A model generated the notes under the pieces. It worked only from the letters and a program-made list of their open reading frames with translations, was not told the origin of the DNA and made no database searches. This document shows, one piece after another, positions 519 through 5,016 of a DNA stretch of 13,686 nt. Source of the DNA: a virus. The position numbers and the translations under genes were made by a program. Location: the UHGV virus genome UHGV-0355549, one strand, 5' to 3'. How positions within the stretch are numbered: position 1 is the first letter of the stretch; each line of letters begins with the position of its first letter.

Positions 519-3500
519 TCAGCTAATCGTGATGCCTGCAGTGGCTTTCTTCATCACCACAACCAGCAAATCGCTGATACTTGCTGTGGGATACCAGTTA
601 TTTACCAGCCATGCTGACACCGAAAACTCCAGTGTCATGTGACCGTGACCGGCAGGCATATCAATAACACCACTGTAAATCAGCGTATTATCCAGCGCGG
701 TACGGTTATAAATTTCAGCACCGTTTTTCCGCACTATCAGACGGCATGAGGAGTAAATATCAGTATGCTCTTTCTCATGTTTAGCGCCGCTGAATGCCAC
801 CGCCGGAATAACAATCTGCCGGTCAAACGGCTGATCGTCATAAACCCTGACGGTAATGGTTCCTGATGGCCACCGCTCCGGTGCACGGGAGTCCCGGGGG
901 AAAGCTTTGCCCACTGTTTTAACGAGATCGCCTTCAATCTGGTTCGCGGACAATTTTCCCAGAACCCGACAGTTCTCGTTAATCGTGACGTTGTTGAGCG
1001 TCCCGGAGTTCGCATTCACGTTACCGCTGATATCGGCATTTTTCGCCGTCAGCCGCCCGTCCGGTGTCAGGGAAAATGCCGGAGGATTACCGCCGCTGGT
1101 AATGGTGGGAGCCGTCAGATATTTCAGGAACACTTCATTCATAAATATCTGATCGCCCTGACCAACAAACATCGGCTTTGTGTTGCCATTCGCAGGATTA
1201 ATCATCGCAATCCTGTCTGCCGCCAGCAGCACCTGACTCTGCATTCCTGCTGGCGTATTCTCAATACCGGCACCGATACCCGCAATATAAAGGCGTCCGT
1301 CCTGCATCTGCTGCAGTTTCACGGCCCACATGCTGTTCAGGTTATTATTTGTATCAACCTGAACTTTCTGTATCTGCTGGATTGCCGCACTCTGATTTTC
1401 CAGTTTTTTATTGACGGTCTGCGTGATTTCATTGCTGACATTCGTAATGGACGTCCTGATTTCAGCCAGGTCCGGCGCAAGCTGACCGTTATCAATCTGC
1501 GTCCACAGCTCCTGGGCCAGATGTGTTTTCCCGATTTCTCCTTTGAAAAAATCCAGGTAACCTTCCGCATCATCGCTCGCCCGACCGACAGCCTCCACGA
1601 ATGCCGATTTGCCAACAGTATTCACACTGCGGATATAAAAATAATAATCATGGCCCGGTTTGATATTGATACTGGCAGCTATCCAGTACAGCGCCGAGCC
1701 AAGATAGCGGGCTGCGGTTTCAACCTGCCTGATATCCGCAATCCGCTTTTCCGAGAACCAGAACTCAAACTGTACCGTCGGGTCATAAACGGCAAGATGC
1801 GGCGTGGCGGTTATCTGAAAATAGCCCGGCGTCAGCTCAATCCGCGACGGTGCTGCCGGTGCGGCAATCCGGAAGGTGGTGGTGGCAGGTTCACCCTGCT
1901 GGCCATAGCTGTTTATCGCCCGCACCGTCAGGGTGTATTCCCCGAGCGGCAGGCCGCTGAAACGGTGCTCCGTGTCTGCGGTGATAGCGGTGGTCACCAG
2001 TCTGGCATCCGTTCCCTTACCACTGGTCAGGCGCAGACTGAAGCGCACACCCTTCACCACCCGCGGCGTGTCCCATTTCGCCTGCGCCAGATACTGGCCG
2101 TCAGCTGCGCTCACCTCCACCGTCAGGTGCTGCACTGCCGGTGGGATGACGCTGTTCAGGGAACCTGACTGCGGCTCAAAGCGGGCACCGTTATCCACGA
2201 TGGCTTCTTTTTCCGGTACGTGCTGCACCGCCGTGATGGCAAAGGTGCCGTCCGTGTTTTCCCGGACGGAGACACAGCGGAACAGGCGACGGCGCAGTGA
2301 CGGCAGGGAGAGTCCCCACACCCCGTATGTCTCCACACCATCAGGCAGGGTACTGACCTGTATCCGGTCCGGCGCGGGGTGTTCGGTGATGTCCACACTC
2401 ACTGGCTTACCGCTGCCGTTAATCAGGTTCACCGTGGCGGCACCGGTCTCCGGAAGTGTCACTTCACGGTCCAGCGTCAGGGTGCGGGTGGCAGCATCAA
2501 TGGACAGGACACGTCCGCCGGTCAGGGTCCCGGCATAGTCGTTATCACAGATTTCAATGATGTCACCGGGTGTGTGCCGCAGCCCCTGAGACCCGAGCGT
2601 GAAATCCACCGTCTGCGTTTCCAGCAGTTCGGTCTTTATCACCCACAGTCCGGCACGGTGGGCCTGACCGCGGCTGGTACAGCCGAACGCGTCCATCTTC
2701 AGCAGGTTGCGTCCGTAGCGCAGTATGGCTTCCGGGTCTTCCACCAGTTCCGTGGAGGTCTGCCAGCCGTTCTGCGGGTCGGTGTAATTCACCTCCACCG
2801 CCGTGTGCCGGTCCTTCAGGGCACTGAAGCTGTAGCGGAATCCCACGCCGTTATCATCCACCACCACATCGCTGTTGGTGTACGGCCACACCACATCCGA
2901 CGGGCGGTCCTGAACGAACGTCAGCGTCTGACCGTTCCATACCGGCATACAGCGCATCGCAGAGCAGAAATCACTGAGAACGTCCCACGCCTTACGCTGT
3001 TGTGCCAGGTACGCATTAAAGGTCATCCGCGGCTCGGTCCCCCCGAAACCATCCGGGACCGTCTGATCGCAGTACTGCCCGATGGCATACAGCGCCCACT
3101 TGTCCACATCCGCCGCCCCCAGACGTTTTCCCATGCCGTAGCGCGGGTGAGTCAGCATGTCCCACAGGCACCAGGCCGGGTTGTTGCTGTATGCCGGTTT
3201 CAGACTGCCGTCCCAGATACCACTGTACGTGCGTTTTTCCGGGTCATAGTTTGACGGCACCTGGATGATACGACCGCGGATATGGTAGTTCACCGTCATC
3301 TGCTGGCCGCCGAACTGCTCCGCATCCACCTGCAGCCCCACAATGGCCGTGTTCGGGTAGCACTGTTTCACATCGATGATTTCGGTGTATGACGACCACA
3401 GCGTCTTATTCTGCAGCTGGTCCGTGGTGCTGTCCGCCGTCTCCCTGACCATCCGGATGTTAAAGGGCCGGGGAGGCAGATTATCCAGAATCACCGAGGC

Positions 3501-3992
3501 CAGGAACTGTGAGGTGGTCTTGCCGTTAATGGTGACGTCCTTTTCTGTCACCCAGTTACCGTTACGCTGTAACTGAATCAGCAGGCGGACGGTTGCCGGG
3601 TTACGGTCACCCTTTGAGGTGGTCTCCACCAGTGACTGCACCCCGAAGGTAACCCGCAGGCGGTCAATGTTCACGGACGTAATGGTGCGCGTCACCGGTT
3701 TTGCCTTCGTCACTTCCACGCCCAGTCCGGTTTCAGCTCCGGAGGACTCAAAGCCTTCCGGTGGTGTCTGCTCCTGCTCCCCGGCACGCCAGACCGCGGT
3801 CACACCGTGTATCACGGGATTACCGTCCGTGTCCGTCAGCGGGGTTTTGTTCACCAGAATACTCTGCAGTCCCTTCACCGGACCTTCTATCGGTCCCTCA
3901 CCAATCGCATCAATCACACTCATCATCTGCGTGGATTTGAGATTATCCTTCGCCTCACGAGGCGTGTGTGCCTTACCGCCACCTTTTCCCAT
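519..3992 (-). CDS. J: Central tail fiber / host specificity protein J (1157 aa)
   Basis: Single long ORF; N-terminus [22 protein letters not shown]... and long collinear stretches (e.g. [82 protein letters not shown]) match lambda gpJ as I recall it; ATG at 3992 preceded by GGAAGG; located between I and lom as in lambda. Confidence 0.97.
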
Positions 3993-4095
3993 ACAGCCTT
4001 CCCCTGAATAAATTAACCGCCACTTGCCATTCCGTACAGAAGTCGGATATCCTTCGCCCGAAAAGCATGAAACACATTTCTGCCATGCTAAAGAG

Positions 4096-4130
4096 AAACC
4101 CCGGTATCAGCAGATACCGGGGTTTTCTTT
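4096..4130. terminator. Perfect 13-bp inverted repeat with 4-nt loop flanked by T-tracts on both strands (possible bidirectional intrinsic terminator or regulator-binding palindrome)
   Basis: AAACCCCGGTATC agca GATACCGGGGTTT (4096..4125) followed by TCTTTC on plus; on the minus strand the same hairpin is followed by CTCTTT. Lies in the non-coding I-J spacer. Confidence 0.45.
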
Positions 4131-4197
4131 CATGCCCACCGATAATCCTGTTGGTTAAAACCGGTAATGGCATAAAAATTCTGAATATCTTCACATT

Positions 4198-4225
4198 TTC
4201 ACACACTGACTGTGGCGCGTATAAT
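4198..4225 (+). promoter_or_regulatory. Sigma70-like promoter candidate (TTCACA -16 bp- TATAAT) with AT-rich upstream region
   Basis: -35 TTCACA at 4198..4203, 16-bp spacer, consensus -10 TATAAT at 4220..4225; AT-rich UP-like sequence upstream (aaaaattctgaatatct); predicted start near G4232. Confidence 0.4.
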
Positions 4226-4231
4226 TTCTCT

Positions 4232-4329
4232 GCGTTAATTTTTTTGTCGTGATATAAGAATAATTCCTTACACTTAATCTTCGTAACTCTCCCGCAGTTC
4301 CTGTCCGCGATCACTGCGGGATTTTTTTA
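4232..4329 (+). ncRNA. Candidate small RNA (about 100 nt) transcribed opposite to the late operon, from the promoter candidate to the intrinsic terminator at 4291..4329
   Basis: Promoter-like element upstream, no credible ORF or RBS inside, AU-rich body, 3' GC-rich hairpin plus U8 tract; an architecture typical of Hfq-type sRNAs. Purely sequence-based prediction. Confidence 0.3.
4291..4329 (+). terminator. Rho-independent terminator (plus strand), convergent with the 3' end of gene I
   Basis: CCCGCAGT (4291..4298) pairs with ACTGCGGG (4313..4320), followed by ATTTTTTTATTCTTTTT; on the minus strand no U-tract follows the hairpin, so it is plus-strand specific. Confidence 0.55.
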
Positions 4330-4335
4330 TTCTTT

Positions 4336-5016
4336 TTACCCCTGCCGCCCGATAACCACGACCTTTCCGCCCCCGCCTTCATCACGGGTGCTGATGTCCT
4401 GGGATATACGGCGGGAGCCAACCAGCATTTCCCCGTAAGGCACCGGCATCGGGTTCCCCTGGGCAATCATGTTATCCAGCGAGGAAAAGTACGTGTTCTG
4501 TCTGCCGTTATCCGTTGCGCGGTAATCCGGTGTTTTTGCCTTCGGGGCCAGCATCTGGGCCACTCCGCCCAGTATCATGCTGGCACCCAGTGAAAACAGC
4601 ATCGTGGTGGCAGAAAAACCACCGGCACTCAGGGCTGTACCCCATAACGCCATCGAGCCTCCGGCCGTGAAGAAAGAGCCCACGATGGCTGCCGCCCCCA
4701 GCACAATCTGCAGTCCACCCTTTCCGGCCCCGGCCAGTCGCGGCACAATGTGGATGACCGTTCCCTCACCCAGCTGTTCGTGAAGACGGGCATACACCGC
4801 CTCCGGTGCCGTGTCATCACCGGCAATACGTATCTGGTACCAGCCTTCGTTCATCTGACGGCGAAAGCCCGGCATCTGCATCGACAGGGCGCGAATGGCT
4901 TCCGCTGCCGTGTTCACATACAGGCTGAGGCGGCGGCCAAATCGTTGCAAATCCCCGTGAAGGCAGATGCGTGCCAGTGGCGGTGACGCCAGACAGAATG
5001 CGTTCGTCGTTGCCAT
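4336..5016 (-). CDS. I: Tail tip assembly protein I (226 aa)
   Basis: ORF MATTNAFCLASPPLARICLHGDLQRFGRRLSLYVNTAAEAIRALSMQMPGFRRQMNEGWYQIRIAGDD... matches lambda gpI (ubiquitin-like N-terminal domain); start overlaps the K 3' end by 103 nt exactly as in lambda; ATG at 5016. Confidence 0.93.
   Translation of the reverse strand: MATTNAFCLASPPLARICLHGDLQRFGRRLSLYVNTAAEAIRALSMQMPGFRRQMNEGWYQIRIAGDDTAPEAVYARLHEQLGEGTVIHIVPRLAGAGKGGLQIVLGAAAIVGSFFTAGGSMALWGTALSAGGFSATTMLFSLGASMILGGVAQMLAPKAKTPDYRATDNGRQNTYFSSLDNMIAQGNPMPVPYGEMLVGSRRISQDISTRDEGGGGKVVVIGRQG

What the first reader, a model, noticed from the sequence alone, without database searches (positions are those of the whole stretch)
3993..4335. 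343-bp AT-rich non-coding insert between tail genes I and J
In lambda the I-J spacer is about 60 bp (from memory of the lambda map); here it is 343 bp, visibly AT-richer than the flanking GC-rich structural genes, and has no credible ORF (the only ORFs run through hairpins, lack an RBS, or overlap the J start). An AT-rich block with its own signals in a tightly packed late operon suggests a horizontally acquired moron-like element.
Basis: partly seen in the sequence, partly recalled or inferred. Interest (0 to 1): 0.6.

Follow-up and report, generated by a model that had tools for sequence, protein, structure and literature searches.

The report
Prophage small-RNA gene between tail genes
The AT-rich gap between tail genes I and J is real, and it holds a divergent, uncatalogued allele of a known Hfq-dependent prophage small RNA (PasB in EPEC, EcOnc22-24 in O157), next to a terminator-like leader in front of J.

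Summary
I (4336..5016) and J (519..3992) lie on the minus strand. They are 343 bp apart, against 60 bp in lambda. The gap has the lowest GC of the whole window and no credible ORF.

The gap is two modules, not one insert.

Right module, 4172..4335. It has a near-consensus sigma-70 promoter on the plus strand, a roughly 97-nt transcript (4232..4328) and an intrinsic terminator ending 7 nt from the I stop codon. This is the pasB locus of EPEC E2348/69. Probe mapping shows it is also the EcOnc22/23/24 locus of O157 Sakai. I found no text linking those two names.

The window carries a third allele class, about 73% identical to either published class. The published PasB census could not have detected it. 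It occurs in 800 of 5,426 complete E. coli genomes.

Left module, 3993..4171. It travels with J and carries a strong bidirectional terminator-like hairpin. That hairpin is the positional analogue of hairpins upstream of J in lambda, E2348/69 and Sakai.

Expression and targets of this allele are inferred, not shown.

The parts
3993..4335 (.). Whole I-J intergenic spacer (343 bp, GC 0.42)
   Evidence: An identical 343 bp is found at >=99% identity in 619 complete E. coli genome records, and at lower identity in 1,669 of 5,426 genomes.
4172..4231 (+). Promoter region of the sRNA gene, about 95% identical between the window and E2348/69 alleles. It includes a TTCACA-N2-TTCACA repeat (4190..4203).
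   Evidence: Alignment; scans.
4198..4203 (+). -35 hexamer TTCACA
   Evidence: 11 of 12 consensus matches, 16-bp spacer. The same site is called in E2348/69.
4220..4225 (+). -10 hexamer TATAAT
   Evidence: Alleles carry TATAAT, AATAAT or GATAAT at this position.
4232..4328 (+). Predicted primary transcript (97 nt) of the PasB/EcOnc22-family sRNA, 'W-type' allele. It is antisense to the late operon.
   Evidence: A covariance model built only from PasB-type and EcOnc22-type alleles matches 4232..4328 full length at 62.9 bits, E about 1e-10, and this is the only significant hit in the window. The 5' end is inferred from the position of the -10.
4245..4328 (+). Segment equivalent to the published 83-nt PasB (NC_011601 1466343..1466261)
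   Evidence: Pairwise alignment; PMC8550237 Table S6. The PasB northern probe matches 4301..4323 on the minus strand at 20 of 23 positions.
4272..4290 (+). Single-stranded stretch upstream of the terminator (ACUUAAUCUUCGUAACUCU), the candidate seed. The core UAAUCUUC is shared by the window, PasB2 and EcOnc22 representatives; E2348/69 PasB has UGAUCUUC.
   Evidence: Folds; allele alignments. The seat of the seed is proposed for PasB in the 2026 preprint.
4291..4320 (+). Terminator hairpin: invariant stem CCCGCAG (4291..4297) pairing with CTGCGGG (4314..4320), and a variable loop
   Evidence: 7 pairs; none varies across 18 alleles, one allele has a gap at four of them.
4322..4328 (+). U7 tail of the terminator, ending 7 nt before the I stop codon (4338..4336, minus strand)
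3993..4171 (.). J-proximal 'long' leader module (GC 0.475). It is replaced by an unrelated 85-nt module in E2348/69 and Sakai.
   Evidence: long and short modules occur with either sRNA allele.
4090..4131 (.). Bidirectional terminator-like hairpin: A-tract 4090..4098, stem 4099..4108 pairing with 4113..4122, T-tract 4123..4131
   Evidence: Folds: -27.2 kcal/mol (z -6.1) on the plus strand and -28.3 kcal/mol (z -5.1) on the minus strand. Analogous late-direction hairpins occur upstream of J in E2348/69, Sakai and lambda.
4064..4089 (.). Second, weaker hairpin (AGCATG..CATGCT)
   Evidence: Fold (fourth sequence).
4024..4053 (+). Weak promoter-like site TTGCCA-18-TATCCT (9 of 12). Together with the 4099..4131 terminator it would give a roughly 75-nt plus-strand RNA. 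Speculative.
   Evidence: not above the shuffle expectation.
3990..4004 (-). J ribosome-binding site GGGGAAGG (4004..3997) and ATG (3992..3990)
   Evidence: Read directly.

Best explanation
The gap is a mosaic junction made of two modules.

(1) The I-proximal 164 bp (4172..4335) is an sRNA 'moron', a self-contained transcription unit on the strand opposite the late operon. It has a near-consensus sigma-70 promoter, a transcript of about 84-97 nt (4232 or 4245 to 4328) and an intrinsic terminator with a U7 tail that stops 7 nt short of the I stop codon. It is a divergent allele of the sRNA known as PasB in EPEC E2348/69 and as EcOnc22/23/24 in O157 Sakai. By analogy with those, it is transcribed from the repressed prophage and stabilised by Hfq. 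The terminator U-tail and U-rich/A-rich tracts are the likely Hfq contacts. It would base-pair in trans with host and mobile-element mRNAs through the single-stranded stretch upstream of the terminator. That stretch and the 5' half differ from both published alleles, so this allele probably has a different target set.

(2) The J-proximal 179 bp (3993..4171) belongs to the J side of the junction. It carries a strong bidirectional terminator-like hairpin. This most likely insulates the sRNA unit and J from read-through in the lysogen and is overridden by Q-modified polymerase during lytic growth.

Shown here: homology, position, orientation, intact signals, distribution and modularity. Inferred: expression, Hfq dependence and trans action of this particular allele, and the role of the hairpin.
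For: Position and homology:
- PasB is annotated at NC_011601 1466343..1466261 (minus strand, 83 nt, prophage PP6), between the genes now annotated as tail assembly protein (I) and gpJ.
- The window aligns to that locus across promoter, body and terminator.
- The PasB northern probe matches 4301..4323 at 20 of 23 positions; chance expectation is 0.
- The EcOnc22/23/24 northern probe from Tree 2014 maps inside the same unit in all three 240-bp I-J gaps of Sakai prophages Sp15, Sp14 and Sp11.
- A covariance model built only from PasB-type and EcOnc22-type alleles hits 4232..4328 on the plus strand, full length, at 62.9 bits and E about 1e-10.

Signals:
- Promoter TTCACA-16-TATAAT, 11 of 12 consensus matches, also called in E2348/69.
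- The terminator stem does not vary across 18 alleles.

Experimental support for the homologues:
- PasB northern at the predicted size; transcript down log2 -6.8 and -2.4 in an hfq deletion; 37 RIL-seq interactions.
- EcOnc22 is about 85 nt and destabilised in an hfq deletion.

Moron character:
- Lambda gap is 60 bp.
- GC is 0.33-0.38 against 0.56 for the window.
- Alleles and left modules reassort.

Not protein-coding.

Hairpin analogues upstream of J. The short-module hairpin shows compensatory changes, CAGGCACC/GGTGCCTG versus CAGGCATCC/GGATGCCTG.
Against: - No expression data exist for this allele.
- The published 5' end and both northern sizes (83-85 nt) are about 13 nt shorter than a start 7 nt after the -10 would give. 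The 5' end is therefore uncertain, or the RNA is processed.
- The sRNA body is only about 67% identical to PasB and about 69% to EcOnc22 outside the terminator, so shared function is not guaranteed.
- There is no Rfam family to test against.
- The predicted 5' helix with compensatory pairs is not the minimum-energy fold of the window allele, and it rests on a few linked haplotypes.
- The function of the left module is pure inference. That module is nearly invariant, so covariation cannot test it.
- The simple terminator scan did not call its hairpin.
Confidence: 0.8

Rival explanations
1. The sRNA works mainly in cis. It is perfectly complementary to the I-J junction of the late mRNA. It could therefore pair with leaky or induced late transcripts, trigger RNase III cleavage or interfere with convergent transcription, and so hold down J (the tail-tip host-specificity protein) in the lysogen or tune the I:J ratio. 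This is not exclusive of a trans role.
For: The position (abutting the I stop) and the antisense orientation are kept in every allele, while the body sequence diverges to about 65-70% identity. A cis-antisense RNA tolerates that pattern automatically. All 72 measurable I-J spacers next to close I homologues carry the unit. The promoter is about 95% conserved against about 67% for the body between the W and E alleles.
Against: PasB has 37 trans partners on Hfq in RIL-seq, and both homologues depend on Hfq, which is typical of trans-acting sRNAs. Positional conservation may only reflect linkage to the I allele. No effect on phage production has been reported.
Confidence: 0.25
2. The left module encodes a second small RNA on the plus strand, roughly 4060..4131: a weak promoter at 4024..4053, a 5' hairpin, an A-rich linker and a strong terminator.
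For: The layout resembles an sRNA, and the 72-nt fold gives -31.9 kcal/mol with z -6.9. There is a promoter-like site with 9 of 12 consensus matches. The module is nearly invariant across about 60 viral contigs.
Against: The promoter match is no better than the shuffle expectation. No Rfam family matches; the best hit is STnc310 at 19 bits, E 0.44, which is terminator-like only. There are no expression data and no sequence hit in the literature. The hairpin is symmetric, so it looks equally good on the other strand.
Confidence: 0.15
3. The gap encodes a small protein: the 113-aa minus-strand ORF 3973..4314, the 94-aa plus-strand ORF 3968..4252, or a short peptide.
For: Open reading frames exist. 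One phage record annotates a 66-aa hypothetical protein overlapping the J start.
Against: There are no PHROG hits and RefSeq annotates nothing here. The ORFs run through the terminator hairpins, overlap the J start and lack a ribosome-binding site. Alleles differ by indels that are not multiples of three.
Confidence: 0.03
4. It is a non-functional recombination scar: AT-rich filler left at a mosaic boundary between I and J alleles.
For: The gap is a mosaic junction whose modules reassort, and IS elements insert into it.
Against: The promoter and terminator are intact and conserved. Homologous alleles are abundantly expressed and Hfq-bound. The unit is kept in about 800 + 956 + 542 genome sets.
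Confidence: 0.04

Closest known systems
PasB (pathogenicity-associated sRNA B), EPEC O127:H6 E2348/69 prophage PP6; Pearl Mizrahi et al. 2021 (PMC8550237); census in Zhu, Shabalina and Storz 2026 (bioRxiv 10.64898/2026.05.13.724894)
   Same: Same locus: between tail genes I and J, antisense to them, with the 3' end 5-7 nt from the I stop. Same promoter (TTCACA-16-TATAAT, about 95% identical). Same terminator (25 nt identical) and a similar length.
   Different: The body outside the terminator is about 67% identical, and 74% overall. The candidate seed and the 5' half differ. The longest shared exact word is 25 nt, so the census criteria (word size 28, query coverage above 75%) cannot find this allele. 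The window has a 179-bp J-side module where E2348/69 has 85 nt.
EcOnc22/EcOnc23/EcOnc24, E. coli O157:H7 Sakai prophages Sp15, Sp14 and Sp11; Tree et al. 2014 (PMC4104026, Table S2)
   Same: Same I-J position and orientation. Same terminator stem and U-tail. Shared core UUAAUCUUC and CUCUCCCGCAG. EcOnc22 is about 85 nt on a northern blot and is destabilised without Hfq.
   Different: About 73% identical overall. The Sakai promoter region is much more divergent; no consensus-type site was called there. Sakai has the short J-side module. Its targets are unknown.
Morons of lambdoid phages (Juhala et al. 2000; the concept as used in Tree et al. 2014)
   Same: Extra DNA between genes that are adjacent in lambda, with its own promoter and terminator, deviant base composition, and expression from the prophage (shown for homologues).
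   Different: The payload is an sRNA rather than a protein. It is transcribed against the late operon.
AgvB/AsxR anti-sRNAs (Rfam AgvB and AsxR, RF02702/RF02703, accession order as quoted in the preprint)
   Same: Prophage-borne, Hfq-dependent sRNAs with a conserved 3' part and a variable targeting part.
   Different: They sit at a different site (downstream of PR'), are shorter (51-60 nt), and show no sequence or Rfam match here.

Membership tests
PasB / EcOnc22-24 sRNA family (I-J junction sRNA of lambdoid prophages) | Gene lies in the I-J intergenic gap, antisense to the late operon, with its 3' end a few nt from the I stop codon | tested here: met
   Window. E2348/69. Sakai.
PasB / EcOnc22-24 sRNA family (I-J junction sRNA of lambdoid prophages) | Sequence and structure homology to the experimentally validated members | tested here: met
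   A covariance model built without any window-type allele hits 4232..4328 full length at 62.9 bits, E about 1e-10. Mosaic intermediates link the allele classes.
PasB / EcOnc22-24 sRNA family (I-J junction sRNA of lambdoid prophages) | Operational definition used by the 2026 census: blastn hit to E2348/69 PasB at word size 28 with query coverage above 75% | tested here: not met
   No hit at word size 28. At word size 11 only 25 nt align, 30% coverage. Method as described.
PasB / EcOnc22-24 sRNA family (I-J junction sRNA of lambdoid prophages) | Own sigma-70 promoter and intrinsic terminator with a poly-U tail | tested here: met
PasB / EcOnc22-24 sRNA family (I-J junction sRNA of lambdoid prophages) | Expressed as an RNA of about 83-85 nt whose level depends on Hfq, with trans partners on Hfq | not testable with these tools
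   Shown only for the E2348/69 and Sakai alleles.
Moron (lambdoid phage accessory transcription unit) | Extra DNA between two genes that are adjacent in related phages | tested here: met
   Lambda I-J gap is 60 bp against 343 bp here. In the phage collection, close relatives of this I protein (>=90% identity, 130 records) are separate from lambda-type I (60-80% identity, 114 records); the sRNA module matched 70 phage records.
Moron (lambdoid phage accessory transcription unit) | Own promoter and terminator, and base composition unlike the flanks | tested here: met
Moron (lambdoid phage accessory transcription unit) | Protein-coding payload (classical definition) | tested here: not met
   No credible ORF. 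The payload is an sRNA.
Moron (lambdoid phage accessory transcription unit) | Expressed from the repressed prophage | not testable with these tools
   True of the homologues in E2348/69 and Sakai lysogens.
Any Rfam 15 family (including AgvB, AsxR, Esr41, STnc100, IsrG) | Score at or above the family gathering threshold | tested here: not met
   No hit at gathering thresholds across the whole window. The best sub-threshold hit is 19 bits.

The most novel reading that the evidence does not exclude
The I-J junction of lambdoid prophages holds a swappable sRNA cassette. The promoter, the terminator and the position are fixed, but the targeting body comes in at least three roughly equidistant allele classes (PasB type, EcOnc22 type and the window type) plus mosaics. 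Each class would have its own regulon, and each is also a perfect antisense to its own I-J late mRNA. The window type is unstudied, though it sits in about 15% of complete E. coli genomes. On this reading, the published conclusion that PasB is missing from EHEC would be a search artefact.
Probability: 0.35. Interest if true: 0.45.

Novelty: new member of a known kind. Interest (0 to 1): 0.33.

Why it matters
Prophage sRNAs rewire host regulation in pathogenic E. coli. This locus has been found twice under two names, and I found no text connecting them. The only census used a search that sees one of at least three allele classes. Counting all three (800, 956 and 542 of 5,426 genomes, with some overlap) changes the picture of who carries it. 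O157 strains typically carry several copies of the EcOnc22-type allele, whereas the census reports EPEC/EHEC isolates as carrying PasA, PasC and PasD rather than PasB. About 15% of complete E. coli genomes carry the window's allele, whose targeting region differs from both studied alleles. That gives a concrete, testable case of how horizontally moved sRNAs diversify their targeting region while keeping promoter, terminator and genomic address. For annotation, it explains a recurrent unannotated AT-rich gap in tail operons.

Tried and rejected
- Rfam at gathering thresholds over the whole window, and at E<=10 over 3900..4450, gave nothing meaningful.
- A PHROGs scan of the three ORFs in the gap found no family.
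- A full-text literature search for six diagnostic sequence strings, including both northern-probe cores and the left-module hairpin, gave no hits.
- A scan of GTDB representative genomes for the 23-nt promoter word found only E. albertii and two tiny contigs labelled Asaia and Streptomyces, which I take to be contamination. There is therefore no evidence for spread outside Escherichia.
- RNAalifold proposed a 5' U-rich/A-rich helix with three compensatory pairs, which beats the shuffled and slid controls. I do not rely on it. The window allele would have a 2-nt loop there and folds differently on its own. The support also comes from a few linked haplotypes.
- The published EcOnc22 coordinates (2902714..2902774) at first seemed to fall in the left module. 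The northern probe shows that they refer to an older Sakai sequence version, shifted by about 130 bp, and that the RNA is the terminator-proximal unit.
- I tried to estimate presence versus absence from close I homologues. The sample is biased, because all 72 measurable spacers had the unit: it is linked to that I allele.
- I did not extract the PasB target list from the RIL-seq tables.

Full report
**Observation**

The late-operon genes lie on the minus strand of the window. J is 519..3992 and I is 4336..5016. PHROGs confirm both identities. The gap 3993..4335 is exactly 343 bp. Its GC is 0.42, against a mean of 0.562 (sd 0.042) for 343-nt windows. It is the lowest-GC stretch of the 13.7-kb window. 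In lambda, I ends at 15444 and J starts at 15505, so the gap there is 60 bp. The ORFs that cross the gap (113, 94 and 44 aa) have no PHROG family. RefSeq annotates nothing at the identical sequence in strain 7/2. Alleles of the gap differ by indels that would break any reading frame.

**Anatomy**

The plus strand, antisense to the tail genes, carries the following signals:
- a promoter TTCACA (4198) - 16 bp - TATAAT (4220..4225), 11 of 12 consensus matches;
- about 70 nt downstream, a hairpin with stem CCCGCAG (4291..4297) pairing with CTGCGGG (4314..4320), followed by T7 (4322..4328).

The T-run ends 7 nt from the I stop codon (4338..4336). Further toward J there is a 10-bp GC-rich hairpin (4099..4122). 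It is flanked by an A-tract and a T-tract, so it looks like an intrinsic terminator on both strands (-27.2 and -28.3 kcal/mol, z about -6 and -5). A weaker hairpin lies at 4064..4089.

**Identity of the right module**

BLAST shows that the 343 bp is common. It matches 1,669 of 5,426 complete E. coli genomes, with 619 genome records at >=99% identity. It also matches 70 phage records, mostly Stx-converting phages. Most of those phage records match only the I-proximal half, 4172..4335.

The literature identifies that half. Pearl Mizrahi et al. 2021 (PMC8550237, Table S6) list PasB as follows:
- an 83-nt RNA at NC_011601 1466343..1466261, minus strand, in prophage PP6, between two co-directional genes;
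- a northern probe AATCCCGCAGTGATCGCGGAGCT;
- a northern blot at the predicted size;
- strong loss in an hfq deletion (log2 -6.8 and -2.4);
- 37 RIL-seq interactions.

In the current RefSeq record, those coordinates fall 5 nt after the tail assembly protein gene (I) and upstream of gpJ, in a 240-bp gap. The probe matches the window at 4301..4323 on the minus strand in 20 of 23 positions; none is expected by chance. The window aligns to the E2348/69 gap through promoter, body and terminator.

**A second, unlinked name for the same locus**

Tree et al. 2014 (PMC4104026, Table S2) list EcOnc22 (Sp15), EcOnc23 (Sp14) and EcOnc24 (Sp11) of O157 Sakai. They are plus-strand Hfq-CRAC peaks. EcOnc22 is about 85 nt on a northern blot and is destabilised in an hfq deletion.

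In NC_002695.2, all three prophages have a 240-bp I-J gap on the minus strand with the same promoter/body/terminator layout. The published EcOnc22/23/24 probe maps to the sRNA body in all three gaps, with 23 nt exact. The published coordinates are offset by about 130 bp, which is close to the 128-bp length difference I recall between the Sakai sequence versions.

The PasB entry in Table S6 lists no EHEC homologue. The 2026 census preprint never mentions EcOnc. A 2021 review lists EcOnc22 with unknown targets. So the link between the two names appears not to have been made in the texts I could read.

**The window allele**

From the predicted start to the U-tail, the window allele (W) compares as follows:
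- 74% identical to E2348/69 PasB (E), and 67% outside the terminator;
- 73% identical to Sakai EcOnc22 (S), and 69% outside the terminator;
- E and S are themselves 73% identical.

The promoter is about 95% conserved between W and E, and the terminator is identical. A scan of IMG/VR with the promoter word returned 120 contigs carrying 32 distinct sRNA bodies. These form a mosaic series in which the 5' block, the middle block, the pre-terminator block and the terminator loop reassort. The exact window body was the commonest, at 39 copies.

A covariance model built only from E-type and S-type alleles hits the window once. The hit covers 4232..4328 on the plus strand, full length, at 62.9 bits and E about 1e-10. 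Homology is therefore secure.

The census of Zhu et al. searched Escherichia genomes with the E2348/69 sequence at word size 28 and required more than 75% query coverage. The longest exact word shared with the window is 25 nt. There is no hit at word size 28, and only 30% coverage at word size 11.

Megablast with allele-specific queries of about 100 nt finds the following among 5,426 complete genomes:

| Allele class | Genomes | Places |
|---|---|---|
| W (window) | 800 | 985 |
| E (PasB) | 956 | 999 |
| S (EcOnc22) | 542 | 1,246 |

The S-type hits are mostly O157:H7 and other EHEC, typically with several copies per genome. So the published census sees one class of at least three.

**Structure**

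The terminator stem does not vary across 18 alleles, while its loop varies. The stretch just upstream is single-stranded in the folds, and that is where the preprint places the PasB seed. It reads ACUUAAUCUUCGUAACUCU in the window. The core UAAUCUUC is shared by the window, PasB2 and EcOnc22 representatives (E2348/69 PasB has UGAUCUUC), but the flanking positions differ.

RNAalifold also proposes a 5' helix between the U-rich leader and the A-rich tract. It has three compensatory pairs and beats the controls. It is not the minimum-energy fold of the window allele and rests on linked haplotypes, so I treat it as tentative.

The published 5' end (equivalent to position 4245) is 13 nt downstream of where the -10 predicts initiation (4232). 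The 5' end is therefore uncertain, or the RNA is processed.

**The left module**

The sequence between J and the promoter comes in two unrelated forms. The long form, present in the window, is 188 nt up to the promoter word. The short form, 85 nt, is found in E2348/69 and Sakai. Both forms occur with either sRNA allele, so the two modules recombine independently.

The short form has a late-direction terminator-like hairpin just upstream of J, called by the scan in E2348/69 and Sakai. It shows compensatory changes between variants. Lambda's 60-bp gap has an analogous hairpin with a U-tract. The window's 4099..4122 hairpin is in the analogous position.

I infer that this is a conserved terminator or insulator (or mRNA-end) element of the J leader. 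The sRNA unit sits between it and the I stop codon, where lambda has only 16 nt. The long module is almost invariant, so covariation cannot test this.

A plus-strand promoter-like site (9 of 12 matches, not above shuffle expectation) together with this terminator could define a second RNA of about 75 nt. That remains a minor rival.

**Mechanism**

Best-supported reading: an sRNA moron transcribed from the repressed prophage, bound and stabilised by Hfq, and acting in trans through the pre-terminator single strand. This allele probably has a target set different from PasB and EcOnc22.

The RNA is also perfectly complementary to the I-J junction of the late mRNA, and the position is kept while the sequence drifts. 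A cis-antisense role on J is therefore a live, non-exclusive rival.

Shown here: homology, address, orientation, intact signals, modularity and distribution. Inferred: expression, Hfq dependence and targets of this allele, and the role of the hairpin.

**Verdict**

The element is a new member (an uncatalogued allele class) of a known sRNA family, not a new kind of system. Interest is modest. The useful by-products are the link between PasB and EcOnc22-24 and the blind spot in the published census.

Noticed in passing
L036 and L126 (IMG/VR contig 2534681940_000025; NZ_BAKW01000035.1), equivalent to window position about 4208: An IS3-family element is inserted in the spacer between the -35 and -10 of the sRNA promoter, which should inactivate the gene in those copies. 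The element begins TGAACCGCCCCGGGAATCCTGGAGACTAAACTCCC and looks like IS629 from memory.
   Followed up: partly
L177 and L179 (IMG/VR), equivalent to window position about 4143: Another IS3-family element sits inside the long left module, expanding the apparent I-J spacer to about 765 bp.
   Followed up: partly
L126 (546-bp contig labelled Asaia platycodi JCM 25414) and L128 (3,408-bp contig labelled Streptomyces flavalbus): GTDB representative assemblies of unrelated genera hold small contigs with this E. coli prophage I-J sequence. This is almost certainly assembly contamination.
   Followed up: no
L005 1446..1505 (lambda 15445..15504): Lambda's own 60-bp I-J gap holds a GC-rich hairpin followed by a U-tract in the late direction (AAACCGCC-TGCG-GGCGGTTTTG; -21 kcal/mol, z -2.8). 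It is a positional analogue of the hairpins upstream of J in the other phages.
   Followed up: partly
L067 (IMG/VR), equivalent to window 4080..4126: A 47-nt deletion variant of the long module removes the bidirectional hairpin exactly, between short TTTCT repeats. The hairpin is therefore dispensable in at least one contig.
   Followed up: no
Window 4190..4203: The -35 region holds a direct repeat TTCACA-TT-TTCACA. Part of it lies inside the search pattern, so its invariance is biased. It could be a regulator binding site; PasB is higher in static overnight LB than in DMEM.
   Followed up: no
NC_002695.2 (L129, L130, L131) versus Tree 2014 Table S2: The EcOnc coordinates in the 2014 table are offset by roughly 130 bp from the current Sakai RefSeq record near 2.9 Mb. 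Taken at face value, they point to the wrong part of the gap.
   Followed up: yes
Window 4917..5016: The long I ORF (226 aa, ATG at 5016) overlaps the upstream K-like gene by about 100 nt, as in lambda (I is 223 aa there). RefSeq annotates a 193-aa version of the same gene in strain 7/2.
   Followed up: no
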